From positions 64,001 through 128,000 of IMG/VR virus record IMGVR_UViG_3300042922_000265: a stretch of DNA of 64,000 bases. The stretch is one strand, 5' to 3'. Made by a program: the position numbers and the translations under genes. A model generated the notes under the pieces. That model worked only from the letters and a program-made list of their open reading frames with translations, had not been told where the DNA came from and ran no database searches. This stretch comes from a virus. Below, in pieces: positions 15,910-63,769 of this stretch (within the stretch, counting starts at the first letter, position 1; every line of letters begins with the position of its first letter).

Positions 15910-16413
15910 TCAGAACACCGTGGCGATGAAGGTGATGGGGTCGTCGGTGGAGATGCGGCAAATATCATTGCTCAGCATCTCGACGTGGAAATCGGTGTAT
16001 TCGGTCTGGCCGTCCAGAGAGAACAGCGCAACGGCCACCGGACCAGAGCGGGCGTGCTTGTGCTCGATGGTGGTGACGGTCTGGGGGGTGTTCTGCACAT
16101 GGACGTGCGGGGTCGCGGTGCCACCACTGCCTGGCTGAGGCAGGGTCTGAATCGGATAGGCGAAATCAGGATCGGCGGCCACAATGACGTCGCCGCGCTC
16201 CCAGACGCGCTCGAACCCGGAGGACTTGGCCACGGTCCAGGGCAGAGGCTGTTCATCGCCCACGTTGCCCTTGGCGGCCAGCAACCAGCGGATGCGGCCC
16301 ATGTTGAAGGTGATGGGCTGGCGCGTCAGGTTGCGTGCAAAGAGATCGGGGCGCGGCGCATAGCCGAACGGGTCAAGCTCGACCTCGTCCAGGCTCACGA
16401 AATTTGTCGACAT
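15910..16413 (-). CDS. Hypothetical structural protein
   Basis: 167-aa ORF with GGAGG RBS and late-promoter motif. Confidence 0.6.
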   Translation of the reverse strand: MSTNFVSLDEVELDPFGYAPRPDLFARNLTRQPITFNMGRIRWLLAAKGNVGDEQPLPWTVAKSSGFERVWERGDVIVAADPDFAYPIQTLPQPGSGGTATPHVHVQNTPQTVTTIEHKHARSGPVAVALFSLDGQTEYTDFHVEMLSNDICRISTDDPITFIATVF

Positions 16414-41100: not shown

Positions 41101-41397
41101 GGAGTTGTCCTCGCCCAGGGTGGCCACGAACTCACGCTTCATCGCGTTGTGAACGCGGCGCATGACTCCGGTGTTGGGGAAGGCTCCGGCAGCCTCGATG
41201 GTCTTGCGGATGTCCGCCTTGGCGTGGTGCCAGCGGTCCTCGAACTCGTCCTTGCCGGTGCTGCCCATGAGGAACGGTCCGTAATCGTCCCGGACGTTCT
41301 GGACTGCGGTGGCCAGTCGGGTGGCTGCCACCCGTGCCTGCCGCTGTGGTGCCTGCTGGGCGTCTACATCCGCCTCAAACAGCCCGAAGTCACTCAT
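38140..41397 (-). CDS. Large acidic low-complexity head-associated protein with Zn-ribbon motifs
   Basis: 1085 aa. CPCG..CRCG and CSAC..HHC. Late-promoter motif upstream. Confidence 0.65.
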   Translation of the reverse strand: MSDFGLFEADVDAQQAPQRQARVAATRLATAVQNVRDDYGPFLMGSTGKDEFEDRWHHAKADIRKTIEAAGAFPNTGVMRRVHNAMKREFVATLGEDNSDDPTKKPKDDGDGDSRTISDSQYKKVQDGDKSVTDEVETNTGDGSDAEGKNKDPNVPKHKDPRHAARQLLAEDFDDGDLIPEGNFDAYLDSVDQGGPEKVERNFSEGGDTGTHREARRLAVELYKDFASDNGLRVAKLSTLNHYADTGIDDSTYFMLANLIRQADENCDCDDDDSSDSHDSESSSGSDDKDTDGPEGSDTDSDGPPSGAAEKGGESESDDTESNDGDSSDSDSGGSSENPFSDGGEDGPPSDAPEEAPGPPADDAGPAGDPEAPPGPPDLGPEDGGDPAGPPPGDPQAPPGPPDLSDAPPLAQDDFSGVEEYAPDAAGALPPDTELVAVEQIEDALGLPPGTLEQILMESAGGAPQGPSSGPGGPPPHMGRRKQSFGEQPAAAAPAPAAPAAPGAAPDPSAPPAAPTTPGVDNGALLDQAGQAVTQLVDQKTQEYQMIIDPLQQAVQAIEFARSVEQAANPLDVTPPEGTVDVSPQSAVDPAAAASQQAGMAPPAPAAPAAPAGGGESSGGGSDSGSSEKKEASRQLALAGHALKIARHYDLSVNGYNMLLEAMSRKHYQHVAEAIQSLPPEHRMGIAASLADMFGQDNVRFNAGQFMASAGVPMGVDAVHMGSRHPFASNTTRTGGETWKPPSGGDSMDAFEFPGHSEKPQFSDNMDVNDLPKAKTSGVVEDYQRYDKRRGEQGLDIGGEGEVDQFLQNKKVGPRAQDKLHETLGLEPHPKTASVFQPKVAGWEFDDHLNGYVSHIRQAFHCPCGQSHLPPSHGMCRCGKLWYTYAIGTGQHLASGEEAQMFLAREIPVRENVIMANRQFEADTEESNNESGDGPFQDYAEDIDFFADDELDSAPTPHAPGETDMETSKTASFGHWPYADQGAQQGAFSRIGADYGDDDHNVVTRNGEKFCSACDAMLWDPNVHHCPQKQASRDFFADWTVYSDDDNKGYEEGPKEPPVTTPGKQPPKDWAKRDDKGNWVKPQFK

Positions 41398-41426
41398 TCC
41401 CTGCTCACTCCCAGTTGAAGGTGTTC

Positions 41427-41461
41427 TACACCTTCTGGAAGCTGCTGCAGGTTTCTACAGG
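41427..41461 (-). promoter_or_regulatory. Putative late promoter
   Basis: CCTGT-N22-AAGGTGTA. Confidence 0.65.
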
Positions 41462-41462
41462 T

Positions 41463-41582
41463 TGGCTGGCCCTCCCCCGTTACAGGGGACCTCCCTCGCG
41501 CTCTCTCGACGGTCTATGCGCACTACTCCGTCGGTGCCCCGCTCAGTTCGCCACCGTCAGTTGCAACATCGGGTGGAGGCCA
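41463..41582 (-). ncRNA. Structured 120-nt tRNA-like RNA ending in GCCA
   Basis: Closing stem TGGCCT/GGGCCA, T-arm-like TCCCC/GGGGA, internal stems CCACC/GGTGG and CGACGG/CCGTCG. Confidence 0.5.
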
Positions 41583-41584
41583 TG

Positions 41585-41655
41585 CGGCCCATCCCGGAGT
41601 CGAACCGGGCTATCGCTGGGGTTAGAAGCCAGCTAGGTCGCCAGACCAATGAGCC
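41585..41655 (-). tRNA. Atypical tRNA with CUA anticodon (amber suppressor / Pyl-like)
   Basis: Acceptor GGCTCAT/ATGGGCC, 4-nt D loop, GCTGG-CTT[CTA]ACC-CCAGC, canonical TTCGA T arm. Confidence 0.7.
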
Positions 41656-41656
41656 T

Positions 41657-41690
41657 TGGTGCTGCGGGTGGGTTTGACGCCACCCGCAAC
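41657..41690 (-). ncRNA. CCA-ended minihelix 1
   Basis: GTTGCGGGTGG-CGTCAAAC-CCACCCGCAGC-ACCA. Confidence 0.7.
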
Positions 41691-41691
41691 G

Positions 41692-41753
41692 CGCCCGAGC
41701 GAGGCTTTGAACCTCTACACTCTCGCGCCTCCGAAGAGGTGCACGTCTCGGGC
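41692..41753 (-). ncRNA. Truncated tRNA-like RNA (acceptor plus T arm, UUCG hairpin, no anticodon)
   Basis: GCCCGAG/CTCGGGC, GAGG-TTCAAAG-CCTC, CCTC-TTCG-GAGG. Confidence 0.6.
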
Positions 41754-41754
41754 C

Positions 41755-41788
41755 TGGTGCTGCGGGTGGCCGTTAAGCCACCCGCAAC
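41755..41788 (-). ncRNA. CCA-ended minihelix 2
   Basis: GTTGCGGGTGG-CTTAACGG-CCACCCGCAGC-ACCA. Confidence 0.7.
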
Positions 41789-41789
41789 G

Positions 41790-41894
41790 TGACCGGGGAG
41801 GGAATCGAACCCAACCCCTTTCCCGGTTGCCCTGCTCTGGTGAGCGCTCACCTCGGCGATCTTCCCGGTTCCGGTGCTCCTATTGCACCCGGCC
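41790..41894 (-). ncRNA. Enlarged tRNA-like RNA (105 nt)
   Basis: Acceptor GGCCGGG/CCCGGTC, GGG-TTCGATT-CCC T arm, D-like TGC/GCA hairpin, expanded centre containing GGTGAGCGCTCACC. Confidence 0.55.
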
Positions 41895-41895
41895 T

Positions 41896-41929
41896 TGGTG
41901 CCCCCGGTGGCTTTTACCCCACCGGGGAC
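41896..41929 (-). ncRNA. CCA-ended minihelix 3
   Basis: GTCCCCGGTGG-GGTAAAAG-CCACCGGGGGC-ACCA, with compensatory changes relative to copies 1 and 2. Confidence 0.7.
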
Positions 41930-41934
41930 AGGTC

Positions 41935-42297
41935 TTACATGGTGAAGGCGTTGCGTAGGCACAGCGGGTAGCTGGCGCAGAGCGCGGACGCTTTCTCTCC
42001 AGGTTCGATGGCGATAGCCGTGAACTCGTCACCGAGATCCGGTTCGACCACCTTGGAGACGACGAGATTGTGTCCCATGCTGGCCTCGGCGGCCAGAGTC
42101 AGGAGTTCGTTCTCGTCATTGACGTTGACGATCACGATGAAGTTGGACGTGCGAATCCACTCGCGCGTAACTTCGGGGTGCTCGTCGTAGAACTGAAAGG
42201 CTGCGTGACACGCCTGAGCGGTCTGCAAGCCTGGGGGGATGTCAGCCCGAACTGCGATGTACAGCTTGTCCATCAGTTCGCGGGGCTTCTCATTCAT
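41935..42297 (-). CDS. Peptidyl-tRNA hydrolase (Pth2 family, divergent)
   Basis: VRADIPPGLQTAQACHAA...DENEL...EPDL..TAIAIEP. Confidence 0.75.
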   Translation of the reverse strand: MNEKPRELMDKLYIAVRADIPPGLQTAQACHAAFQFYDEHPEVTREWIRTSNFIVIVNVNDENELLTLAAEASMGHNLVVSKVVEPDLGDEFTAIAIEPGEKASALCASYPLCLRNAFTM

Positions 42298-42309
42298 CTA
42301 CACCCCATC

Positions 42310-42340
42310 ACTGTAGCACATAGGATCATCGGCCTGTCAA
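42310..42340 (-). promoter_or_regulatory. SigA-like promoter for the Pth2 / RNA array unit
   Basis: TTGACA-N19-TACAGT with TG extension. A second TGC-TATAGT lies about 40 nt upstream. Confidence 0.55.
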
Positions 42341-42378
42341 CCATACTGACCACTATAGCATCTCTACAGGGTTTAGAG

Positions 42379-42460
42379 TAGCCGAAGTGGGACTCGAACC
42401 CACACGTCCGAAGACACGGCATTTTGAGTACCGCGCGTCTACCAGTTTCGCCATTCGGCC
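42379..42460 (-). tRNA. tRNA-Leu(CAA)
   Basis: Full cloverleaf, CGGTA-CT[CAA]AA-TGCCG, long variable arm, no encoded CCA. Confidence 0.92.
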
Positions 42461-42503
42461 ATCAGCTCGTCATCTCCGGCCTGCAGTCCTCGGATGACTC
42501 ACG

Positions 42504-42577
42504 TGCCCCTGGGGAGACTCGAACTCCCAACCACACGGGTTTAAACCGTGCCGCTCTACCAATTGGCGTACGAGGGC
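42504..42577 (-). tRNA. tRNA-Leu(TAA), short variable loop
   Basis: CACGG-TT[TAA]AC-CCGTG, TTCGAGT T loop. Confidence 0.88.
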
Positions 42578-42582
42578 CTACG

Positions 42583-42655
42583 TACTCCGAGCGGGACTCG
42601 AACCCGCACTGGGTGGCCTCTCAGACCACTGCCTCTGCCATTGGGCTACCGGAGC
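42583..42655 (-). tRNA. tRNA-Leu(GAG), short variable loop
   Basis: GTGGT-CT[GAG]AG-GCCAC. Confidence 0.88.
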
Positions 42656-42660
42656 TTACG

Positions 42661-42746
42661 TACCTGGAGAGGGACTCGAACCCTCACGACCGTCAAAGGC
42701 CACTGGATTCTGAGTCCAGCGCGTCTACCAATTCCACCACCCAGGC
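42661..42746 (-). tRNA. tRNA-Leu(CAG)
   Basis: CTGGA-CT[CAG]AA-TCCAG, long variable arm. Confidence 0.92.
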
Positions 42747-42774
42747 ATAGGTGCTGCTCTATTCAGTTGTCACG

Positions 42775-42857
42775 CGGAAGGTAGAGGAATCGAACCCCCA
42801 GGAATCACCCCGCCCCGGTATTCGACGCCGGTTGCCGACCATTCAGCGGTACCCTCC
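42775..42857 (-). tRNA. tRNA-Ser(CGA)
   Basis: GGAGGGT/ACCTTCC-G acceptor, GT[CGA]AT loop, long variable arm. Confidence 0.85.
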
Positions 42858-42869
42858 AAGGTTACTGCG

Positions 42870-42952
42870 CGGAAGGCGGGAGACTTGAACTCCACGGGGG
42901 TTAGTCCGTATCGGTTTAGCAAACCGACTGCATCACCTGATGCTCACCCTCC
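42870..42952 (-). tRNA. tRNA-Ser(GCT)
   Basis: TCGGT-TT[GCT]AA-ACCGA, G73 discriminator. Confidence 0.88.
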
Positions 42953-43034
42953 ATAGCGAGGGCGAACGCCCTCAACCTACGAAAGTCGTAGGGAGGATGA
43001 CAAACTCAGGCGTGTGAACATGGGATTGACTGTA

Positions 43035-44453
43035 TCAGAAGCTGTCGCGGCGGGTCAAGGGCCGCTTGGCACGCCAGTCCTCGTCACGCTGCTGGGCTAG
43101 CGGGCGGGCAACCTCCGACTCGGCGAAGGCCCGACCTTCGTCGCTCAAGTTCGGGCTGTGGTGCAGGTCAGGCTCGATGTTGTCGGTCACGTGATCAAAC
43201 ATCGCGGTGCCAACACCACGGCGCTGCCAATCCGGGTGGACTCGTAGGTCCCAGATCTCACCCTTCTTGCGCGGGTGATCGCCGATCCACTGCATGTGGC
43301 CGACCATCTGGTCACCGACGTGCGCCGAGATCGCAGGAAAGGCACCGGGGTCGACCTTCTCGCTGGGCTGGATCACGTCGGGAAAGGGGGCGGCTCCAAG
43401 CGGGTGGTGCTGAAAGGTCAGCCCCTCCGGGTACGGACCGTTGAGACCAGCCATCTGGAGAACCCTATGGCCACGTTCGGCCTTCGGACGGATGTCGACC
43501 ATCTCGCCGATGCCGTATTTGTCATGGGTGACGATCCCGTCATGTCCCTTGGCGATCAGGGCGTCAGAAAGAGCTTGGCCGGTCGCGCCGCCATGGGCCT
43601 GACTCAGATCATGCTTCCAGTTGCCATCGTTGTGCGGCATGTACAGCGGGTTCTCGAAACTGACATTGCCGCGCTCCCACCCAGGGTGGGGCGTACCCGT
43701 GGCGTACTGGCCATCGGACATGTACCGGCCCCACGGCTCGACCTTCTGGGCATAGTCATCAGGACCGGCCCACTGTCGCACGCCGCCGTTGTTGCGGATG
43801 TAGGGCATCGTCACGGCGGCAGTCCGATGAGCGTTCAGGACCATGTCGTTGGGCACGTGCTCGGGATGGTTCGGCGACCAGCGGATGTCCCAGGGAACGT
43901 CAGGGTGGTGCCCACGCCACTTCTTCGGCCACGGGCTGCCCTGCAGGGCTGCAGTGCGGTTCTGTGCCCTCTGGTCAGCCACCTGGAGGTAGGGCTTCAT
44001 CTCGGCCTCATTCTGACCAGTGTAGGGGACATGGGCGGGCGTGTACTGCTTCACCGCCGTCCATCCCCAGTCCGCCGGGTTGTCCTCGGCCTTGGTGACG
44101 TGCTGGTCACCAGGATCGTGGTAATCCGGGTCAGACTGTGCCCAGGCGCGACCGGCGCTGGAGAAGTGATTGGAGTGCCGGATCGGGTAGCTGGCCTCGT
44201 AGGTGGCCGGATCGGACTGTGCGTGCTTGAGCATGGCGCTGGCCACGCCCATCCGCTGGAAGTCCGGGTGCACGGTGATGGAATCGATCTCACCGTGCGG
44301 GTGCCAGTGCAGGTGGCCCAGAGGACGCCCATCCTGGGCGTGCCGCGCCATGATGCCGTTGGACCAGTGTGTGTCGAACGGCTCGAACGTCAGCGGTGGC
44401 AGGTCACCGTTTGCTCCAGCGGTGACGACTCCCCAGAGCCCCCAGGTGTCCAT
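43035..44453 (-). CDS. Polyvalent protein: GNAT, ADP-ribosyltransferase-like, GNAT
   Basis: Two motif-A copies (VHPDFQRMGVA, VHPDWQRRGVG) around a central FENPL...GHDGIV segment. Confidence 0.7.
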   Translation of the reverse strand: MDTWGLWGVVTAGANGDLPPLTFEPFDTHWSNGIMARHAQDGRPLGHLHWHPHGEIDSITVHPDFQRMGVASAMLKHAQSDPATYEASYPIRHSNHFSSAGRAWAQSDPDYHDPGDQHVTKAEDNPADWGWTAVKQYTPAHVPYTGQNEAEMKPYLQVADQRAQNRTAALQGSPWPKKWRGHHPDVPWDIRWSPNHPEHVPNDMVLNAHRTAAVTMPYIRNNGGVRQWAGPDDYAQKVEPWGRYMSDGQYATGTPHPGWERGNVSFENPLYMPHNDGNWKHDLSQAHGGATGQALSDALIAKGHDGIVTHDKYGIGEMVDIRPKAERGHRVLQMAGLNGPYPEGLTFQHHPLGAAPFPDVIQPSEKVDPGAFPAISAHVGDQMVGHMQWIGDHPRKKGEIWDLRVHPDWQRRGVGTAMFDHVTDNIEPDLHHSPNLSDEGRAFAESEVARPLAQQRDEDWRAKRPLTRRDSF

Positions 44454-44456
44454 CGG

Positions 44457-44681
44457 TCAGCCCTTGAGCGCCTTGATGCGGTCGGGCCGGAACCCCTGCC
44501 AGTGGGTGGCTTCGTCGACCACGACGACCGGCACACCAAGGTAGTTCAACGCCTCCACGGCGGCCTTGGCCGCCGGGTCGGTAGTGACATCGAGGACCTC
44601 ATAGTCCACCCCGACCTTCTCCAGCTCCTGCTTGGTGAGCTTGCAGGGCTGGCAGCCGGGCTTGGTGTAGAGCATGACCAT
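44457..44681 (-). CDS. nrdH: NrdH-like glutaredoxin
   Basis: CQPC active site, VPVV, WQGFRPD. Leaderless after TAGAAT. Confidence 0.9.
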   Translation of the reverse strand: MVMLYTKPGCQPCKLTKQELEKVGVDYEVLDVTTDPAAKAAVEALNYLGVPVVVVDEATHWQGFRPDRIKALKG

Positions 44682-44706
44682 GTGTATATTCTACCTTACT
44701 AGAGTA

Positions 44707-45135
44707 TTACTTAGGGAATTGCGAGCACTCGGGATACTGGTTCTTCTCCCGCGCTGCTGCCACCTTAGCCTGGTCCTTCTTGATTTCGGCGTTGACCGTG
44801 AAGAACCGCTGGAGAGCGGCCTTGTTCAGGTCAGCATTGCCCTCGCCCAGAGACAGATCGGTCACCAACTGCTCCCAGACCGCCTGGCGACGCTCGTCCA
44901 ACTTGGCGATGTCGTCGTTGTACCCCACTCGGGTGGTCAGCACATTGACCACCTGCACGAGGCAGGCGTTGGTCTCGTTGGCGAACTCTGCCGTCGCTGC
45001 GGCCTGGTTTTCTACCTGATCAGCGGTCTGCTGAGTACGTACGCCGATCCACACGATGAAGAACGTCGCGATGACCACGTAGGTCCAGAATCGCGAACTG
45101 TATGCGTAGGTCCCGTCAGCTTTCTTCTTGAACAT
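44707..45135 (-). CDS. Single-pass membrane protein with extracytoplasmic coiled coil
   Basis: ATG 45135 (MFKKK), TM segment FWTYVVIATFFIVWIGV. Confidence 0.6.
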   Translation of the reverse strand: MFKKKADGTYAYSSRFWTYVVIATFFIVWIGVRTQQTADQVENQAAATAEFANETNACLVQVVNVLTTRVGYNDDIAKLDERRQAVWEQLVTDLSLGEGNADLNKAALQRFFTVNAEIKKDQAKVAAAREKNQYPECSQFPK

Positions 45136-45256
45136 CGTCGACCTTCCTATCACGCCAGAACTTGCAGTACAGATGATGCGCGCCGACGCCAGCAAGGAAC
45201 GACACCGGGGTCTGGTAGACAGCAAACCCCTGGATCGTTTCCATGATGGTGTTCAT
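45116..45256 (-). CDS. Small membrane protein (46 aa)
   Basis: Hand-translated MNTIMETIQGFAVYQTPVSFLAGVG, TGATG-coupled. Confidence 0.5.
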   Translation of the reverse strand: MNTIMETIQGFAVYQTPVSFLAGVGAHHLYCKFWRDRKVDDVQEES

Positions 45257-45483
45257 CAGCCACCCTCATCCTCGTCGTCAGACTCAGATTTCTTGCTGCT
45301 GCTGTTCTTCTTGTCGATCGCCTCGTTGGCGAACCAGACACCGAAACTGGCCACCAAAAGCTGGTCGAGAACGGGGGGAGGAGTTGGGTCCCGCCATTGG
45401 AACAGTGCCCACAAGCACACCAGCAGAAACAAGCCGACCGTGGTCGGCTTGGTATCGGCCAGCGGGTTCTTCCACTTCGCCAC
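45256..45483 (-). CDS. Two-TM membrane protein (holin-like)
   Basis: 75 aa, two hydrophobic segments and a charged tail. Confidence 0.5.
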   Translation of the reverse strand: MAKWKNPLADTKPTTVGLFLLVCLWALFQWRDPTPPPVLDQLLVASFGVWFANEAIDKKNSSSKKSESDDEDEGG

Positions 45484-45491
45484 TACCCCTC

Positions 45492-45956
45492 CTAGTAGAG
45501 GAGCTGATCGTCAAAGTCCTCGAACGTCGAGGTCTGAGCAGCCGCCACTTTCGGACGGTTGGGGATCAGCTCAGCCACCTGTGATACGAAAGCCTGCACA
45601 GCACGCTGCGCAGCTTCAGGAGTCCAGGTGGAGGTCAAAGTGCGGGCGTGCCGCTGAGCGCGGTACAGCGTTTCTGAGCGGCTCTCCGGGCATTCATGCT
45701 CGGCCAGGAAATTGCTCGCCTCCAGGCGCAGCGTCTGGGCCACCTTGCGGGGGACGCTGGACGTCTTCTCGGACGGCTTGTCGTCGTCCCGATCCTCCCA
45801 GTTGTCTGGGTCCAGATCGTACTTCTCGTGCTCGCGCTGCGGTGCGTTCTTGGTCTCGGCCCAAGGGACACCAGCAGTACGGTGGGTCGGTCCTACCGAC
45901 CGGCGCTGGATGTGCGCGGGCACCGCCAGCGGATCGCGCTCTGCATTCTTGAACAT
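45492..45956 (-). CDS. Hypothetical late protein
   Basis: 154 aa with AGGAGG RBS and late-promoter motif. Confidence 0.6.
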   Translation of the reverse strand: MFKNAERDPLAVPAHIQRRSVGPTHRTAGVPWAETKNAPQREHEKYDLDPDNWEDRDDDKPSEKTSSVPRKVAQTLRLEASNFLAEHECPESRSETLYRAQRHARTLTSTWTPEAAQRAVQAFVSQVAELIPNRPKVAAAQTSTFEDFDDQLLY

Positions 45957-45968
45957 GGCAAGACCTCC

Positions 45969-46004
45969 TACCCATTACGGGGAGAAGGAGATCAAACCGC
46001 AGGG
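45969..46004 (-). promoter_or_regulatory. Putative late promoter
   Basis: CCCTGC-N22-AATGGGTA. Confidence 0.65.
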
Positions 46005-46294
46005 TCGCTGAGCGCCCGGTCGCGCGCCTCGCACCGGTCGTACCGGTAGACCTTGCCGCCCTTGACGCCGTCACGCGGATCAGCCTTGCTGAACTCGTAG
46101 GCCAGAATGGCCAGGCTGTCATTGAGCAGTCGCTTCAGCTGCGGGTCACGAGCCTCGCTGATGCGCTGATTGTCGCAGGCGCGGTGTACGAAGAACATGT
46201 TGGGCCAACGGCCCTCGGTCTCGATGTCGGCGGTGTAGCCGTCCTGCTCTCCACCGAACAGCTCGACGTGGATGGTTTTGGTCTTGATGGCCAT
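45992..46294 (-). CDS. Hypothetical protein
   Basis: ATG 46294 (MAIKTK) after AGGAGG. Confidence 0.6.
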   Translation of the reverse strand: MAIKTKTIHVELFGGEQDGYTADIETEGRWPNMFFVHRACDNQRISEARDPQLKRLLNDSLAILAYEFSKADPRDGVKGGKVYRYDRCEARDRALSDPAV

Positions 46295-46311
46295 GGAAGC
46301 ATCCTCCTGTT

Positions 46312-46347
46312 CACCTATTCCAGGGGGTCCCAGGTTCCATCGCAGGG
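46312..46347 (-). promoter_or_regulatory. Putative late promoter
   Basis: CCCTGC-N22-AATAGGTG. Confidence 0.65.
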
Positions 46348-46707
46348 TCATTTGAAGTCGTCGGAATCGACGCCCTCACCGAAATATGGACCGCTCTTGT
46401 CGCGGTAACTCATCTCGAACTTCTCCAGCAGACTCTGGGCGAGCGCGTCGGTCACGCTGCCGGTGACCACGTAATCGTGTTCAGTGAAAACCTGCTCGAT
46501 GAACCCTCTCAGCTGGCGGTACCGGCGAGCCTCCTCGGCCTCTAGGGCCTCCAGGCGCGCCGCACGATCACGGAGGTGCTCCACGACACTGGCGACCGTG
46601 GCGATCTCATTCACTCCGCCCTCGGTCAGCTTGACCAAGGCGTTGGCCAGGCGGTCCAGGTCGGAGGCGCTCCAGTCCTCATAGGGGTCGAGTTGGTTGA
46701 CCATCAT
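46348..46707 (-). CDS. Hypothetical protein
   Basis: 119 aa, coupled to the upstream gene. Confidence 0.55.
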   Translation of the reverse strand: MMVNQLDPYEDWSASDLDRLANALVKLTEGGVNEIATVASVVEHLRDRAARLEALEAEEARRYRQLRGFIEQVFTEHDYVVTGSVTDALAQSLLEKFEMSYRDKSGPYFGEGVDSDDFK

Positions 46708-47096
46708 CAGACCAACCGCTTTCCGACGCCGCCGGTGATCGGCACGCCAGAAACATCAGGGCCTGGGGCCGGTGCGGCAACGACTTCGCCCCGGTGATCA
46801 TGCCATGGGCACAACTCGACTGCGGCAGACTCCACAATCGCGAAGGCTTCATCCTGATCGTAAAACCAGGGAGCCCCTCGGAAGGCGGCGATCACAGCGG
46901 TGCCGTTGTTGCTGTCCATCGCGGCACAGGCACCCCGGCCCTGAGCGACCATCAAGGCTGAGTCATGGACGATCATCAGGTGGACGCCACCCAGGCGGTC
47001 TAGATAGCCAGGGACGTCCGCCTGCGCCGGAGATGCCATGATCATGGCTCCAGCTACGGACAGCATGCCTGCGAGTGCGAATTTTCCGATTGCCAT
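46707..47096 (-). CDS. Secreted DUF732-like protein
   Basis: Signal peptide ending PAQA-D; YLDRL..GRGAC..AAVELCP pattern. Leaderless. Confidence 0.7.
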   Translation of the reverse strand: MAIGKFALAGMLSVAGAMIMASPAQADVPGYLDRLGGVHLMIVHDSALMVAQGRGACAAMDSNNGTAVIAAFRGAPWFYDQDEAFAIVESAAVELCPWHDHRGEVVAAPAPGPDVSGVPITGGVGKRLV

Positions 47097-47102
47097 AGCA
47101 CA

Positions 47103-47131
47103 AGTATGTCAGACACTAGAACGTTTTGCAA
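47103..47131 (-). promoter_or_regulatory. SigA-like promoter with GTTCTAG box
   Basis: TTGCAA-N17(GTTCTAG)-CATACT, ATG 6 nt downstream. Confidence 0.7.
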
Positions 47132-47639
47132 CCCGGACGATGATCCAGGGAGGCACGCCGTACTTCACGGCCAGGTGCATCCGCAAGATGTCCCGTGCGA
47201 CCTGTGGCGCGGTGCTGGGCAGTCTGCGCATCACGTTGCGGATGCGGGAACGCTGGTAGCGCGTCAGGTGGTGGTATTCACCCTGCCGGGCCTCTGTGGC
47301 CCAACCACGAACTCTCGTCGGCCAGGGAGCCGTCCAACCACTGGCACCGCGTACGTCACCGATGCGCCCATCGAACGTGGGCTCGGCGGTCTGAGACCAC
47401 CACTTGCCGGGGCGTCTGCCGAACAGCGGGTTATAGGCGCGCCGGTACATGCCGTCTTGTAGGTACTCGCCGAGCTTCAAGCCCACGGAGAACTCACGAC
47501 GAAGACGAAGCTCATACTGGTGTGGGCTGAGGATTCCGTGAATCGGCCCGGTGACCAGATCTTCGTCGGCCCGGTCCAACGCCAGGATGGCCCAAGCCTG
47601 GTCTTCCAGGTCTTGGGCCACCCCGTAGTGGAGATCCAC
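47109..47639 (-). CDS. Hypothetical basic protein
   Basis: 176-aa ORF abutting the upstream stop. Confidence 0.5.
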   Translation of the reverse strand: MDLHYGVAQDLEDQAWAILALDRADEDLVTGPIHGILSPHQYELRLRREFSVGLKLGEYLQDGMYRRAYNPLFGRRPGKWWSQTAEPTFDGRIGDVRGASGWTAPWPTRVRGWATEARQGEYHHLTRYQRSRIRNVMRRLPSTAPQVARDILRMHLAVKYGVPPWIIVRVAKRSSV

Positions 47640-48833
47640 TTAGACGTTGGCCGCCGCTGCCAGCTGCATGGCCTGGACTGCGGTGCCCTCCAGCTCGAAC
47701 GCGCGATCCGGGTTGTCGACCCGCTGGACCATCGAGGTGACCGCGTGCATGATGCCGCCGGAGGTCAGCTGGCCGCCCCGCATGAAGTCGTCCAGGATCA
47801 TGTCCTGCTCGCCCTCGGAGTACTGGAGCTTCTTGCCCACCAGCTTGACGGTGTCGTCGGCGTTGGAACCGGGGATCTCGACGCCCGCGTCCTTGATCAG
47901 GTCGTCGCGCAGGCTGGTCAGGTAGCCCTCCGAGAGGAAGGACTTGACCGCATCCTTGACCTGGGCGCGGACGAACTCGTTGGCCGCGTCCTGGGTCTCG
48001 GTGCTCCAGTTGATGGAGCCGGTCTCCAGCTTGCCGCCCAGGTGGACCTTGCGGAAGCCGTCCACGTCCCGACGCAGACCGTTCTTGCAGACCTGGACCA
48101 CCGCGCGGGGCAGGATCTGGAAGGCACCACGGCCCACCTCGGAGTTGGTGAACACCAGGCCCGCGCTCATGAACGGGTTGTCCTTGGAGTCCTGGTCATA
48201 GAAGTGGTAGCCCTTCACCAGGTCCTGGGCGTGGATCTTGATCTCCGGCACGTCGACTGCCAGGTAGATGCGCTCGTCGGAGAGATCGATACCGGTGATG
48301 TTGGAGGCGTCCAGGCGCTTCTCGACGCCGTCCTCGCCGGTCACGGTGACCTCACGCAGGCCCTGCAGGACGCTCATGACGGTGTCCAGGTGGTCCCGGA
48401 AGCCGTAGCGGTCGCTCAGGATGGCCCGCACGTAGCCCATCGAGGTGGGGTCCTCCGGGTTGGAGCCCTGGATGATGCGCAGCAGGCTGCGACCCGTGGC
48501 GTCGGCAGCCCACTCGTTGACGTTGGTGTCCAGCAGCGAGACCTTCTCGGCCCGCATGCGGCGAATGTAGCGGACCGGGATGCCGAACAGGTCGGCGAGG
48601 TTCTGGTCCACGATGTGCGCGGTGTCGTAGGCACCGTTCGGGTTGGTCACGCCGTCGCCGTCGAGGATGATCTCCTGACCGTCGATGATGATGCGACCCA
48701 TCTCCAGGTGGATGGAGTTGGTGGGGACCACGAGGTCCACCTTGGCCGCGTGCTGGTCCTTGAGGACCTGCACCAGGGTCGGCAGATCGGCGTTGCGAAG
48801 GGTGCGGGTGGGAAGCGGGGCGAGAGTGGTCAT
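47640..48833 (-). CDS. DUF932-like protein
   Basis: TNSEVGRGA...VCKNG motif, strong codon bias. Confidence 0.65.
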   Translation of the reverse strand: MTTLAPLPTRTLRNADLPTLVQVLKDQHAAKVDLVVPTNSIHLEMGRIIIDGQEIILDGDGVTNPNGAYDTAHIVDQNLADLFGIPVRYIRRMRAEKVSLLDTNVNEWAADATGRSLLRIIQGSNPEDPTSMGYVRAILSDRYGFRDHLDTVMSVLQGLREVTVTGEDGVEKRLDASNITGIDLSDERIYLAVDVPEIKIHAQDLVKGYHFYDQDSKDNPFMSAGLVFTNSEVGRGAFQILPRAVVQVCKNGLRRDVDGFRKVHLGGKLETGSINWSTETQDAANEFVRAQVKDAVKSFLSEGYLTSLRDDLIKDAGVEIPGSNADDTVKLVGKKLQYSEGEQDMILDDFMRGGQLTSGGIMHAVTSMVQRVDNPDRAFELEGTAVQAMQLAAAANV

Positions 48834-48917
48834 GTGTTGTGTTCTCCTTCGGGGTGTGTCTGACTGACAGGATCTACTTTACACCCTCTATAGGACAAAA
48901 CACAACACCTACTAGAA

Positions 48918-49373
48918 CTAGCTGGTAGACGCCTTGATTTCGTCGTCAACCCTGTAGGGTTCCAGCCAGATCTCCAGCCGGTCCAGGGCACCATCCCCAC
49001 CGGTCTTCTCCACCCAGCCGTAGATGTACCCGGCGGCGAACGCCAGGGCCTGGTCCACGTCCTCGTCAGCCAAACTGATCACCACCGGGATCTCGCCGTC
49101 GTGCATCAGCTGCAGCGGTTCATGACCACCCTCGCCCTCCACGCTGGACCACACGGTCACCTGCTGGCCCATGGCCCCGGTCTTGAACACTGGGAACTGG
49201 GTGGCGATACGGTAGGGCTTAACCTCCTTGGGTACCGAGGGGTTCGGCGTCACCTCCACTCGGACGTGCTGGTCGGGATGCAGCTCACGGTGCTGGCGCG
49301 CCTGAGCAAGGAGATCCTGCGCCTGCGCGTTCTTCCTCAGCTGCTCCAGCCGCTCGCTCATGGGGTCGGACAT
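48918..49373 (-). CDS. Hypothetical protein
   Basis: 151 aa with AAGGAG RBS. Confidence 0.55.
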   Translation of the reverse strand: MSDPMSERLEQLRKNAQAQDLLAQARQHRELHPDQHVRVEVTPNPSVPKEVKPYRIATQFPVFKTGAMGQQVTVWSSVEGEGGHEPLQLMHDGEIPVVISLADEDVDQALAFAAGYIYGWVEKTGGDGALDRLEIWLEPYRVDDEIKASTS

Positions 49374-62228: not shown

Positions 62229-62573
62229 TCATCGGTGATTCCTCTCAGCGTTCTCCCGCGCCACCATGCGCATCGCCTCCCAGAGATCAGCCATGATGTT
62301 GTCCTCCGGGTGGCGCTCATACGGCGGGCACTCGGTGGCGCTGCGGTGATGCAGCCGCCCGTAGCCGCCCCAGTTCGTGTCCTTGCAATGCGGGTGACGA
62401 CAGTACTTCTCCGGGTAGAAATGCTCCTGAAAGTGGTCACCGTGACCCTGGTAGGAGTAATCCACCGCGTGCCGGGGCTTGTGGTCGCCAGGATCACGCA
62501 CACCGCTAGGGATCGACCGCTTGGCATGCCTGCCGTACAGGAACGCGCCGATGTCGGTCAGAGGGACGCTCAT
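62229..62573 (-). CDS. Hypothetical protein
   Basis: His/Cys-rich ORF coupled to the CCA enzyme gene. Confidence 0.5.
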   Translation of the reverse strand: MSVPLTDIGAFLYGRHAKRSIPSGVRDPGDHKPRHAVDYSYQGHGDHFQEHFYPEKYCRHPHCKDTNWGGYGRLHHRSATECPPYERHPEDNIMADLWEAMRMVARENAERNHR

Positions 62574-63736
62574 GATGCCTCCATCCAATCTGCCAGGTGA
62601 GAGATGACGTCCTCGTGGGTCAGTTTGCCCTCATCCAGCCGCAGCTCCCAGAGGAAACGCAACGCCTCGCCCACGCGCGGACCCTTGGAGAGGCCGGTCA
62701 AATCCATCACCTCGGCACCGGACAGGAAGGGCTCGGGATGACCCTCGGCCTCCAGTAGCGTCTCGATGCGACCGGAGAGGATGTCATCACCCAGCAGTTC
62801 CTCCAGCTGAGGCAGTAGGTCACCAGAGATGGCAACCACTCGCCGCACCATAGGCCAGGTCCATTCCGACACCTCCTGGAATCGCTGCACCCAGGTCACC
62901 AGGTTGGTGACGGAACGCTGACGCTCAACGCTCATCCTGAAGCGCTTGGTGATGTCGGTGACCTTGTGCGGGTCCACCTCCAGCAGCAGGTCCGCCCACG
63001 CGGACTCCAGAGTGGCGCGCTGCTTGATCGACGGCGCGGCGATCAGCTCGGGCAGGATCTCCTTGAGCAGGCCGGTGTGCAGCATCTCCGACAGCCCCCG
63101 GAACGGGTCCGGGCTCATCAGCATCCGATCCATCTCCACAGCCTTGCGCTCAGCACTGACCATGTGGATCAGCTCACGGTTGGCCGCGATGGCCAGCTTC
63201 TCCGCGTCACCGACCTTGAAGCCCAGCTGAGCAGCGAAGCGCACTGCGCGCATCATCCGCAGCGGGTCGTCGGTGAAGGTCTTGACCGGGTCCATCGGCG
63301 TCTTGAGCAGCCCCAGGGACAGGGCGGTCTTGCCGTTGAACGGGTCGATGACGTGGTCGTTGAGGCCGAGCTGAGTAACCTGCATGGCCATCGCGTTGAT
63401 GGTGAAGTCGCGGCGCTGCAGATCCTCCTCCAGGACCTCGGTGAACGCCACCTCCGGCTTGCGGCCCGGACCGTCGGTGCGCATCGTGGTGATCTCCACA
63501 TCGAATCCGTCACGGCGCGCGGCGATGGTTCCGAACCGGGCACCGACGTCCCAGATGGCGTCAGCCCACGAGGCCAAGATCGCCTGGATCTCATCCGGCT
63601 TGGCCGTGGTGGTGAAGTCCCAGTCCTTGACCTCGCGGTTCAGGAGTTTGTCCCGGACGCTGCCGCCGACCAGGAAGAGCCGATGGCCCGCCTGATCGAA
63701 CTTCAGCCCGAGGCTGGAGAGAAGTTGGGGGTGCAT
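62570..63736 (-). CDS. cca: tRNA nucleotidyltransferase (CCA-adding enzyme / poly(A) polymerase family)
   Basis: GGSVRD..DWDF, EDLQRRDFTINAMA, DDPLRMMRAVRF. Leaderless ATG 63736 after TTGACC-N18-TAGAAT. Confidence 0.9.
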   Translation of the reverse strand: MHPQLLSSLGLKFDQAGHRLFLVGGSVRDKLLNREVKDWDFTTTAKPDEIQAILASWADAIWDVGARFGTIAARRDGFDVEITTMRTDGPGRKPEVAFTEVLEEDLQRRDFTINAMAMQVTQLGLNDHVIDPFNGKTALSLGLLKTPMDPVKTFTDDPLRMMRAVRFAAQLGFKVGDAEKLAIAANRELIHMVSAERKAVEMDRMLMSPDPFRGLSEMLHTGLLKEILPELIAAPSIKQRATLESAWADLLLEVDPHKVTDITKRFRMSVERQRSVTNLVTWVQRFQEVSEWTWPMVRRVVAISGDLLPQLEELLGDDILSGRIETLLEAEGHPEPFLSGAEVMDLTGLSKGPRVGEALRFLWELRLDEGKLTHEDVISHLADWMEAS

Positions 63737-63769
63737 GAAATCCATTCTAGCCGATAGAGGACTACAGGG

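What the first reader, a model, noticed from the sequence alone, without database searches (positions are those of the whole stretch)
41657..41929. Three co-varying 34-nt acceptor-stem minihelices
Copies at 41657-41690, 41755-41788 and 41896-41929 share an 11-bp stem, G1-C, a U2.G wobble, an 8-nt loop, discriminator A and terminal CCA. Copy 3 replaces TGCG/CGCA with CCCC/GGGG, which is three fully compensatory pair changes, and all three loops differ. Structure and the 3' end are conserved rather than sequence. There is no U-tract, so they are not terminators. tRNA scanners would miss them.
Basis: seen in the sequence. Interest (0 to 1): 0.88.

Follow-up and report, generated by a model that had tools for sequence, protein, structure and literature searches.

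The report
Phage genes for CCA-ended tRNA minihelices
A Myrna-like mycobacteriophage carries three tiny genes for 34-base hairpin RNAs that copy only the amino-acid-accepting arm of a tRNA, ACCA tail included; related phages keep them through compensating mutations right behind a peptidyl-tRNA-hydrolase-like gene, so they are selected tRNA look-alikes that cannot decode and whose job is still unknown.

Summary
Three 34-nt units at 41690->41657, 41788->41755 and 41929->41896 each have G1-C, U2.G, an 11-bp stem (13 bp in copy 2) and ACCA. They are the only such elements in the 167-kb genome (covariance model 47-55 bits; the next hit, 18.6, is their own reverse strand).

The phage is a cluster C2 (Myrnavirus) mycobacteriophage. 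The units lie in one tRNA operon: four tRNA-Leu, a Pth2-like gene, minihelix, 107-nt tRNA-like, minihelix, 64-nt anticodon-less tRNA-like, minihelix, tRNA(CUA). Myrna, Phabba, ScoobyDoobyDoo and about 15 metagenomic phage contigs hold the same units at the same place.
- Across 22 distinct sequences, 99.6% of cells pair and 10 of 11 pairs change on both sides.
- One relative has a textbook form: 12 bp plus the T-loop UUCGAAU plus ACCA.
- Units abut their neighbours with 0-1 nt spacers, usually U-1/G+1.

Best reading: non-decoding tRNA acceptor-arm mimics released by RNase P. Their function is inferred only (decoy or partner for enzymes that read the CCA end); a cis processing role is the main rival. 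No Rfam family or paper was found. Earlier notes of this scan describe Pth2-linked tRNA mimics in other phages.

The parts
41896..41929 (-). Minihelix copy 3. It starts 5 nt after the Pth2-like stop codon: 11-bp stem, loop GGUAAAAG, ACCA.
   Evidence: Covariance model 55.1 bits. Positional orthologues in Myrna, Phabba, ScoobyDoobyDoo, L009, L010, L012, L013, L022, L023, L025, L032 and L064.
41789..41894 (-). About 106-nt tRNA-like element. Acceptor GGCCGGG/CCCGGUC, T-loop UUCGAUU, D-arm-like hairpin, long middle part, ends N73-C with no CCA. Not called as a tRNA.
   Evidence: No tRNA hit at E<1. Homologous elements in L014, L022, L033 and L064.
41755..41788 (-). Minihelix copy 2. Same stem as copy 1, loop CUUAACGG (13 bp plus UAAC possible), ACCA.
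   Evidence: 47.7 bits.
41691..41754 (-). 64-nt anticodon-less tRNA-like element. Acceptor GCCCGAG/CUCGGGC, a UUCG-capped hairpin in place of the D and anticodon arms, T-loop UUCAAAG, ends G73-C.
   Evidence: A comparable element stands in L010 before the identical minihelix.
41657..41690 (-). Minihelix copy 1. Loop CGUCAAAC, ACCA, one nucleotide upstream of tRNA(CUA).
   Evidence: 51.3 bits. 34/34 identical to L010:2986-3019 although the flanks have diverged.
41584..41655 (-). tRNA with anticodon CUA (amber-suppressor type), a 4-bp anticodon stem and a 9-nt loop. It is the constant last member of the module.
   Evidence: ARAGORN, fold. A CUA tRNA ends the module in nearly all relatives.
41935..42297 (-). 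Pth2-like (PF01981) gene of 120 aa. It is the constant first member of the module.
   Evidence: Pfam 40.7 bits. Homologues. PDB profile match to archaeal Pth2 2zv3.
42378..42952 (-). Upstream tRNA genes of the same strand: Ser(GCU), a likely Ser(CGA) missed by ARAGORN, and Leu x4. None has an encoded CCA.
43029..43058 (-). Promoter-like site (TTGACC, 18 nt, TG-TACAGT) ahead of the tRNA array. It is the inferred start of the transcription unit. No intrinsic terminator lies between it and 41200.
   Evidence: This is a consensus match only.

Best explanation
The three units are genes for about 34-nt RNAs that reproduce the coaxial acceptor-stem/T-arm half of a tRNA, with discriminator A73 and a genomically encoded CCA. 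They have no D arm and no anticodon arm, so they cannot decode.

Expression and release (inferred, not measured):
- They are co-transcribed with the tRNA array and the Pth2-like gene.
- RNase P cuts at G+1 of each unit, which fits the U-1, G+1 and 3' ACCA features.
- The same cut at the next element, 0-1 nt downstream, makes each unit's 3' end.
- The array therefore resolves into free minihelices with tRNA-like ends.

Function (inferred). They most likely act in trans as non-decoding mimics of the tRNA end. They would be a competing substrate, decoy or partner for proteins that read only the acceptor helix plus NCCA. Candidates are host toxins that attack the tRNA CCA end, the phage's own divergent Pth2-like enzyme, and its CCA-adding enzyme.

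My odds:
- About 0.85 that they are selected tRNA-arm-mimic RNA genes released by tRNA-processing enzymes.
- About 0.45 that the function is trans-acting mimicry or decoy rather than cis processing.
For: Shown here:
- Anatomy and uniqueness in the genome.
- Same strand and tight tiling with tRNAs and tRNA-like elements.
- Homologues at the orthologous place, 4-7 nt after the Pth2-like stop codon, in three cultured C2 phages and many metagenomic contigs.
- Whole-record searches find them only at this locus in Myrna, Phabba and ScoobyDoobyDoo, and none in the C1 phage ET08.
- Covariation: 9 seeds are 100% paired with 8 of 11 pairs double-sided. 22 distinct sequences are 99.6% paired, 10 of 11 pairs double-sided, 58 double-sided cells, and 0 of 500 shuffles reach the observed score.
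- A less biased test picked units only by 7 outer pairs plus NCCA. In 22 of 24 distinct units the inner 4-5 pairs are perfect too.
- Among 78 Pth2 loci, closed-stem-plus-NCCA elements number 117 on the sense strand, 48 on the antisense strand and about 30 in shuffles. 28 loci have one starting within 13 nt of the stop codon.
- tRNA ancestry: L010 has 12 bp plus UUCGAAU plus ACCA. The loop core GUCAAA/UCRAA recurs on unrelated stems.
- At the same position other relatives carry mini-tRNAs (acceptor, small central arm, T arm, NCCA). The minihelix is thus the end point of a reduction series.
- Product rather than punctuation: two minihelices sit back to back in L013, and there are 2-3 copies per genome.
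- Copy 1 is 34/34 identical to L010's second unit while the flanks and Pth2 (68% aa identity) have diverged.
- Encoded CCA is special to these units. Only 3 of the phage's 35 ARAGORN-called tRNAs encode CCA.
- U-1 precedes 21 of 30 units, and A-C-U-U precedes most first units.
- The phage encodes its own CCA-adding-type nucleotidyltransferase.

From papers:
- A synthetic tRNA minihelix is an efficient substrate of the CCA-targeting antiphage toxin FaRel2, which reads acceptor pairs 1, 2, 4 and 5 (PMC11559606).
- A tRNA-like-domain-only tmRNA in mycobacteriophage DS6A has been proposed to act by titration (PMC4131195).

From established knowledge: acceptor/T-arm minihelices with CCA are model substrates of bacterial RNase P, CCA-adding enzymes, EF-Tu and several synthetases.
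Against:
- Helix and loop geometry is 11 bp plus 8 nt rather than the canonical 12 plus 7, and the loops are not uniformly T-loop-like. L023 has GAAA, and copy 2 can close to a tetraloop.
- The invariable start 4-7 nt after the stop codon and the 0-1 nt tiling fit a pure processing role equally well.
- No target protein is identified. Known acceptor-stem identity sets are not matched: no G3.U70, no G-1/C73, and U2.G71 appears in no aminoacylation identity set in PMC9976931.
- The covariation sets were partly selected by pairing or fitted to the model. The percentage paired is therefore inflated, although positional orthology and the inner-stem test are independent of that selection.
Confidence: 0.55

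Rival explanations
1. Cis-acting processing and stability punctuation. The minihelices are minimal RNase P entry sites, like plant mitochondrial t-elements or the MALAT1 mascRNA. They cut the Pth2-like mRNA from the downstream RNAs and create the 3' ends of the CCA-less tRNA-like elements before them. The released hairpin is only a by-product.
For: - The first unit always begins 4-7 nt after the stop codon, behind a conserved (A)CUU leader with U-1/G+1.
- In the window each tRNA-like element ends N73-C directly against a minihelix G+1. One RNase P cut would leave a substrate for CCA completion.
- For a substrate lacking the tRNA body, CCA is known to matter most for bacterial RNase P (established knowledge).
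Against: - The neighbouring tRNA-like element or tRNA(CUA) already offers an RNase P site.
- Tandem minihelices (L013) and a minihelix between two CCA-ended elements (Myrna, Phabba) are redundant for punctuation.
- The conserved loop core and 34/34 identity across diverged phages suggest constraint beyond 'any helix plus CCA'.
Confidence: 0.27
2. Aminoacylated carriers. The minihelices are charged by a host or phage enzyme. They then serve as dedicated amino-acid donors or acceptors outside the ribosome, or as substrates of the Pth2-like enzyme. A possible user is the neighbouring tandem-GNAT protein, by analogy with phage Mu Mom, which uses Gly-tRNA.
For: - Perfect acceptor helix, A73 and CCA.
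- A conserved U2.G71 wobble (19 of 22) looks like a recognition mark.
- A 472-aa tandem-GNAT ORF lies just upstream, with the same synteny in L007.
- Mom is a GNAT that uses charged tRNA (PMC13219725).
Against: - No known minihelix identity element is present.
- GNAT synteny is seen only in the C2-like subset, whereas the Pth2 link is general.
- The GNAT hits are to acetyl-CoA-type families.
Confidence: 0.1
3. Decaying remnants of tRNA genes with no function of their own. The hairpins would be left after internal deletions in a fast-evolving tRNA array.
For: The region is very plastic between relatives. Minihelix, mini-tRNA and long tRNA-like forms replace each other.
Against: Relics should accumulate mismatches and lose CCA. 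Instead 99.6% of cells pair with many compensatory changes, and CCA is kept although the phage's working tRNAs mostly lack it.
Confidence: 0.04
4. U-tract-less ('I-shaped') mycobacterial terminators, or DNA-level palindromes.
For: GC-rich perfect hairpins. No canonical terminator lies in the region.
Against: - They sit upstream of further genes of the same unit, including a conserved tRNA 1 nt away.
- The strand-specific ACCA is retained (0 of 28 hairpins on the opposite strand are followed by NCCA).
- The loop resembles a T-loop.
- One distant relative (L039) has, directly after its Pth2 gene, a hairpin followed by a T-run, which is terminator-like.
Confidence: 0.04

Closest known systems
Synthetic tRNA minihelices (acceptor stem stacked on the T stem-loop plus NCCA), used as model substrates for RNase P, CCA-adding enzymes, EF-Tu, synthetases and the toxSAS FaRel2
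   Same: One continuous helix of about 12 bp, a T-type loop, a discriminator base and a single-stranded CCA. L010's copy is exactly 7+5 bp plus UUCGAAU plus ACCA. A minihelix is enough for FaRel2.
   Different: Those are laboratory constructs. Here the form is encoded in a genome, conserved and multi-copy. Most copies are 11 bp plus an 8-nt loop with a GUCAAA core rather than 12 plus 7.
tRNA-like-domain-only tmRNA of mycobacteriophage DS6A (PMC4131195)
   Same: A mycobacteriophage-encoded, non-decoding, CCA-ended fragment of a tRNA-like molecule, proposed to work by titrating a tRNA-binding protein.
   Different: The tmRNA domain has the alanine mark G3.U70 and a D-loop analogue for SmpB. The minihelices have C3-G70 or U3-A70 and no such element. 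No tmRNA gene was called by ARAGORN in this genome.
Anticodon-less or reduced tRNA look-alikes next to phage Pth2-like genes (earlier notes of this scan), and stable tRNA-like RNAs in the T4/T5 tRNA clusters (recalled, not tested)
   Same: Same cassette logic: a Pth2-like gene followed by CCA-ended tRNA-shaped RNAs that cannot decode, kept through compensatory changes (my own loci).
   Different: Those retain an elbow and a central arm. The minihelix is the most reduced member, with no central arm at all.
t-elements of plant mitochondria, and mascRNA at the MALAT1 3' end
   Same: tRNA-like folds directly after a longer transcript, cut by RNase P or RNase Z to make its 3' end (established knowledge).
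   Different: Those are cloverleaf-like, single and not CCA-encoded. Here the units are bare helices, CCA-encoded and repeated.
Intrinsic terminator hairpins
   Same: A GC-rich perfect stem-loop downstream of a stop codon.
   Different: No U-tract, a conserved ACCA, and further co-oriented RNA genes 0-1 nt downstream.

Membership tests
Canonical tRNA (Rfam RF00005) | Cloverleaf with D arm, anticodon arm and 7-nt anticodon loop | tested here: not met
   34 nt with a single helix. No tRNA hit at E<=1, and none from ARAGORN.
Canonical tRNA (Rfam RF00005) | 7-bp acceptor stem, discriminator base, 3' CCA | tested here: met
   G1-C72 through pair 7, A73 and CCA in all three copies.
tRNA minihelix (acceptor plus T-arm half-molecule) | Continuous helix of about 12 bp (7+5) | tested here: met
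   11-13 bp in the window copies. 11-13 bp in 22 of 24 distinct relatives.
tRNA minihelix (acceptor plus T-arm half-molecule) | 7-nt T-loop UUCRANY | tested here: inconclusive
   Exact in L010 (UUCGAAU). The window loops are 8 nt. The UCAAA core is present in copy 1 only, GUAAAA in copy 3, and copy 2 can close to a tetraloop.
tRNA minihelix (acceptor plus T-arm half-molecule) | Cleaved by RNase P at +1, repaired by CCA-adding enzyme, chargeable | not testable with these tools
   Only sequence features that fit: U-1 in 21 of 30 units, G+1, and ACCA.
tmRNA tRNA-like domain | G3.U70 alanine identity pair | tested here: not met
   Pair 3-70 is C-G, U-A, G-C or G-U in 14, 4, 3 and 1 of 22 sequences. 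None of the window copies has G.U.
Intrinsic (Rho-independent) terminator | GC hairpin followed by a U-tract | tested here: not met
   No terminator-like site in 41200-43200. ACCA plus purine follows each hairpin.
Any Rfam 15 family | Score at or above the family's gathering threshold | tested here: not met
   Only four tRNA-Leu pass in the window. Nothing matches at 41657-41929.
Pth2-linked phage tRNA-mimic cassette (this scan's working class) | Lies directly downstream of a PF01981 gene, CCA-ended, non-decoding, structure kept by compensatory change | tested here: met

The most novel reading that the evidence does not exclude
The minihelices are a phage counter-defence RNA. Made in bulk by RNase P from a tRNA operon, they would soak up host enzymes that disable tRNAs at the CCA end. 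Candidates are pyrophosphorylating toxSAS such as the prophage-borne PhRel/CapRel type, MenT/AbiEii nucleotidyltransferases, and tRNA-acetylating GNAT toxins. The divergent Pth2-like enzyme and the phage CCA-adding enzyme would clean or rebuild damaged ends. Together they would form a previously unrecognised RNA-protein 'tRNA-end protection' module, widespread in large actinophages and beyond.
Probability: 0.25. Interest if true: 0.9.

Novelty: new variant of a known kind. Interest (0 to 1): 0.74.

Why it matters
Minihelices have been laboratory tools for about 35 years, used to ask what enzymes see in the top half of a tRNA. Finding them as conserved, multi-copy natural genes would show that a virus uses the acceptor arm alone as a functional RNA.

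The constant partnership with a divergent Pth2-like protein and a suppressor-type tRNA defines a compact module that can be manipulated in a cultured, non-pathogenic system (Myrna or Phabba on M. smegmatis). Its function can be tested directly.

It bears on two open topics: how phages defend translation against tRNA-targeting immunity, and what the unexplained 'stable RNAs' in phage tRNA clusters are for.

It also flags annotation errors. Myrna gene 85 ('tRNA-Ser') and Phabba's 'tRNA-OTHER' span a minihelix plus a mini-tRNA.

Tried and rejected
- BLASTN of the 371-nt array against cultured phages matched only the tRNA(CUA) part of Myrna. The units are too short and variable for nucleotide search, so relatives were reached through the Pth2-like protein instead.
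- An IUPAC scan of IMG/VR for the commonest acceptor sequence gave one hit. It lies inside a glycine-rich coding region with no inner pairing, so it is chance.
- I tried to reach a host (M. smegmatis) genome to compare acceptor stems, using the phage CCA-enzyme. Its best cellular relatives are not mycobacteria, so that comparison was dropped.
- The model found nothing in 3 plus 151 sampled genomes of one actinobacterial class. The sample is uninformative: its taxonomy is unknown to me, and there was no positive control.
- I looked for extra minihelices after the phage's other 35 tRNAs, prompted by 'GUUGCGGU' tails after tRNA-Glu and tRNA-Phe. There are none.
- I checked known acceptor-stem identity sets for U2.G71. 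None matches.
- Literature searches for phage or mycobacteriophage minihelix or tRNA-like genes found no description.
- The MenT3 specificity paper does not mention minihelices.
- Considered and rejected: terminators, tmRNA pieces, Ro-associated Y RNA (the phage's Ro60 gene is about 100 kb away), and type III antitoxin repeats (these are not identical direct repeats, and they sit downstream rather than upstream).

Full report
**Observation**

The three 34-nt copies are real. They are meaningful on the minus strand.
- c3, 41929->41896: GUCCCCGGUGG/GGUAAAAG/CCACCGGGGGC/ACCA
- c2, 41788->41755: GUUGCGGGUGG/CUUAACGG/CCACCCGCAGC/ACCA
- c1, 41690->41657: GUUGCGGGUGG/CGUCAAAC/CCACCCGCAGC/ACCA

Each folds as predicted, at -22.7 to -26.9 kcal/mol and z -4.0 to -6.1. 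Copy 2 can extend to 13 bp with a UAAC loop. Copies 1 and 2 share one stem, so they are a duplication. Copy 3 differs from them by three double-sided pair changes. No U-tract follows any copy.

A hairpin-plus-NCCA scan and a covariance model both find only these three in the 167,373-bp genome. The model gives 47.7-55.1 bits for the three copies, which are among its seeds; the next hit, 18.6 bits, is their own reverse strand, so there is no fourth copy.

**Context**

The genome is a cluster C2 (Myrnavirus, Ceeclamvirinae) mycobacteriophage related to Myrna, Phabba and ScoobyDoobyDoo.

On the minus strand the order is:
1. a promoter-like site (43058->43029);
2. tRNA-Ser, a second Ser-like tRNA, and four tRNA-Leu;
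3. a 120-aa PF01981 Pth2-like gene (42297->41935);
4. 5 nt of spacer, then c3;
5. 1 nt, then a tRNA-like element of about 106 nt that ends N73-C;
6. c2;
7. a 64-nt tRNA-like element whose D and anticodon arms are replaced by a UUCG-capped hairpin, also ending N73-C;
8. c1;
9. 1 nt, then a tRNA with anticodon CUA.

No terminator-like site lies in the stretch. ARAGORN and Rfam call none of the minihelices or tRNA-like elements.

**Relatives**

Myrna and Phabba have two minihelices: GUCGGGGGAGG-GGUCAAAG-...-ACCA and GCCCCGGCUGG-GGUCAAAG-...-ACCA. They flank a 54-nt D-armless mini-tRNA with ACCA. ScoobyDoobyDoo has one 35-nt minihelix. All start 4-5 nt after the Pth2-like stop codon. Whole-record model searches find them only there, and none in the C1 phage ET08.

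In C1 phages the Pth2-like gene sits in the main tRNA array. It is followed by CCA-ended tRNA-like elements of 70-77 nt and a CUA tRNA.

I fetched metagenomic contigs through Pth2-like homologues. Many show the same layout.
- L010 has a textbook minihelix (12 bp, T-loop UUCGAAU, ACCA). It also has a second unit 34/34 identical to window c1, although the flanks have diverged.
- L013 has two minihelices 1 nt apart.
- L022, the closest relative, has two.
- L023 has a bulged 13-bp form with a GAAA loop.
- More distant contigs (Pth2 identity 42-51%: L037, L045, L053, L059) also carry them, some with discriminator U.

Where no minihelix follows the stop codon, a mini-tRNA takes its place. It has an acceptor stem, a small central arm, a T arm and NCCA. 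Examples are ET08, L006, L007, L014, L024, L034, L036 and L041. The minihelix is therefore the fully reduced end of a series of non-decoding tRNA mimics.

The module nearly always ends with a suppressor-type tRNA. This is usually CUA. In L045 it is UCA.

**Statistics**

Nine 34-nt seeds are 100% paired, with 8 of 11 pairs changed on both sides. Those seeds were picked by a perfect-stem scan, so that figure is biased.

The model then found non-seed members at 25-58 bits. On 22 distinct sequences:
- 99.6% of 242 cells pair;
- 10 of 11 pairs show double-sided changes, in 58 cells;
- 0 of 500 shuffles reach the observed covariation score;
- slid controls drop to 47-58% paired.

This alignment is fitted to the model, so I ran two checks that do not depend on it.
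- I selected units only by seven outer pairs plus NCCA and a span of 30-37 nt. In 22 of 24 distinct units the inner stem is perfect as well.
- I selected long hairpins (stem of 10 bp or more) regardless of what follows. About 22 of 35 on the sense strand are followed by NCCA, against 0 of 28 on the antisense strand.

Over 78 loci, closed-stem-plus-NCCA elements number 117 on the sense strand, 48 on the antisense strand and about 30 in shuffles. 28 loci have one starting within 13 nt of the Pth2 stop codon.

Other recurring features:
- The U2.G71 wobble is kept in 19 of 22 sequences.
- The loop core xGUCAAAx recurs on unrelated stems.
- U-1 precedes 21 of 30 units.
- The first units sit behind a conserved (A)CUU leader.

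**Encoded CCA**

Only 3 of the phage's 35 ARAGORN-called tRNAs encode CCA. Most end N73-C and are then followed by G. All minihelices carry ACCA, or rarely UCCA.

The phage encodes a CCA-adding-type nucleotidyltransferase (PF01743, window 62570-63745). It also encodes a Ro60/TROVE protein elsewhere in the genome.

**Mechanism: shown and inferred**

Shown:
- a conserved, strand-specific, CCA-ended helix;
- its tight tiling with tRNA genes;
- its link to Pth2-like genes;
- its maintenance by compensatory change.

Inferred from established knowledge of tRNA processing:
- The units are co-transcribed with the array.
- Bacterial RNase P accepts acceptor/T-arm minihelices with CCA and prefers U-1/G+1. 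It would cut at each +1.
- Because neighbours abut with 0-1 nt, the same cuts would create the 3' ends.
- Encoded CCA would block RNase Z.

Inferred function: a trans-acting mimic of the tRNA end. Multi-copy and tandem arrangement, the conserved loop and wobble, and identity across diverged phages argue for a product rather than a mere cut site. Two published findings make titration or decoy plausible.
- A synthetic minihelix is an efficient substrate of the antiphage toxSAS FaRel2, which reads the CCA end and acceptor pairs 1, 2, 4 and 5 (PMC11559606).
- A tRNA-like-domain-only tmRNA in mycobacteriophage DS6A has been proposed to act by titration (PMC4131195).

Neither a target nor expression is demonstrated here.

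The main rival is a cis role as an RNase P punctuation mark. It would define the Pth2 mRNA 3' end and the ends of the CCA-less tRNA-likes. This fits the fixed distance from the stop codon but not the redundancy.

A carrier role for non-ribosomal aminoacyl transfer is possible but weak. In its favour are the tandem-GNAT neighbour and the Mom precedent (PMC13219725).

Relics and terminators are disfavoured by the conservation data.

**Comparison with the known**

The units work like laboratory tRNA minihelices and belong with natural tRNA mimics (tmRNA tRNA-like domain, t-elements, mascRNA, viral tRNA-like structures). They fail the tests for canonical tRNA, for the tmRNA domain (no G3.U70) and for terminators, and they match no Rfam family. 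I found no paper describing genomically encoded minihelices in phages.

Earlier AI notes of this scan report anticodon-less tRNA mimics beside Pth2-like genes in other phages, and one notes a CCA-minihelix. I treated these as leads. My own survey of about 80 loci shows the cassette independently.

**Verdict**

This is a real, selected RNA element. It is the most reduced member of a Pth2-linked class of non-decoding tRNA look-alikes. I rate it a new variant of a known kind (tRNA mimicry). The function is open and experimentally tractable.

Noticed in passing
window 41584-41655 (-): The tRNA next to copy 1 has anticodon CUA (amber-suppressor type) with a 31x39 mismatch, giving a 4-bp anticodon stem and the 9-nt loop CUUCUAACC. 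Relatives have either this form or a normal 7-nt CUCUAAN loop, and L045 has UCA instead. A CUA tRNA ends nearly every Pth2 module. A 2026 paper on 4-bp anticodon stems (PMC13092985) may be relevant. Earlier notes of this scan propose four-base decoding for enlarged-loop tRNAs beside Pth2; I did not test that here.
   Followed up: partly
window 41789-41894 (-): A tRNA-like element of about 106 nt with a D-arm-like hairpin, a long central insert holding a small GC hairpin, and a UUCGAUU T-loop. It is conserved in L014, L022, L033 and L064, where it sometimes ends ACCA. No scanner calls it.
   Followed up: partly
window 41935-42297 (-): In the profile alignment to archaeal Pth2 (2zv3), the phage clade has GL where Pth2 has GK, and PDLGD plus a gap where Pth2 has DAGHT. 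The residues I recall as catalytic (Lys and Thr; from memory, unverified) may therefore be replaced. The clade's own invariant residues are Q25, Q28, H31, W47, S51, N52, E85, P86, D87 and E91. It may not be an ordinary peptidyl-tRNA hydrolase.
   Followed up: partly
window 43035-44453 (-): A 472-aa ORF with two GNAT acetyltransferase-like regions lies just upstream of the tRNA array. Its Myrna counterpart (gp78) is annotated 'ParB C-terminal domain'. The same GNAT, tRNA array, Pth2 and large-ORF synteny appears in the metagenomic contig L007.
   Followed up: no
window 42776-42857 (-): A probable tRNA-Ser(CGA) missed by ARAGORN. It has only a sub-threshold tRNA-Sec model hit of 29 bits. ARAGORN calls the equivalent gene in L007.
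   Followed up: no
window 62570-63745 (-); genome 6632-7645 (outside the window): The phage encodes a CCA-adding-type nucleotidyltransferase (PF01743, 114 bits) and a Ro60/TROVE protein. The best cellular relatives of the CCA enzyme are not mycobacterial.
   Followed up: partly
whole genome (tRNA arrays at 15994-16151, 43515-49114 and 105584-106952): 32 of the 35 ARAGORN-called tRNAs lack CCA. Most end N73-C and are often followed by GU (for example ACGU). Several T-arm-like fragments (GGUUCGAUUCC) lie between called tRNAs in the main array, so more uncalled tRNA-like elements are likely.
   Followed up: no
window 41398-41583 (-): A stretch after tRNA(CUA), of the form GGCCUCCAC...GGUGGCGAACUGAG...GGGAGG..., is recognisably conserved in Phabba, L007 and L022. 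In L007 it lies before the CUA tRNA. It may be another structured RNA or the leader of the 1085-aa gene.
   Followed up: no
L009, L012, L013, L024, L025, L031-L033, L064 and L005 (ET08): In C1-like relatives a small conserved hairpin flanked by CAAA motifs (GCAAA-CCUGGGUG-NNNN-CUGCCCAG-CAAAG) directly precedes the CUA tRNA. This is where C2 phages have a minihelix.
   Followed up: no
L001 (Myrna genes 85/86) and L002 (Phabba gt005): The public annotations 'tRNA-Ser' (Myrna 85) and 'tRNA-OTHER (NNN)' (Phabba) span part of a minihelix plus the 54-nt D-armless mini-tRNA. They are not real tRNA-Ser genes. The CUA tRNA is annotated as Ser in Myrna and as Arg(tct) in Phabba.
   Followed up: partly
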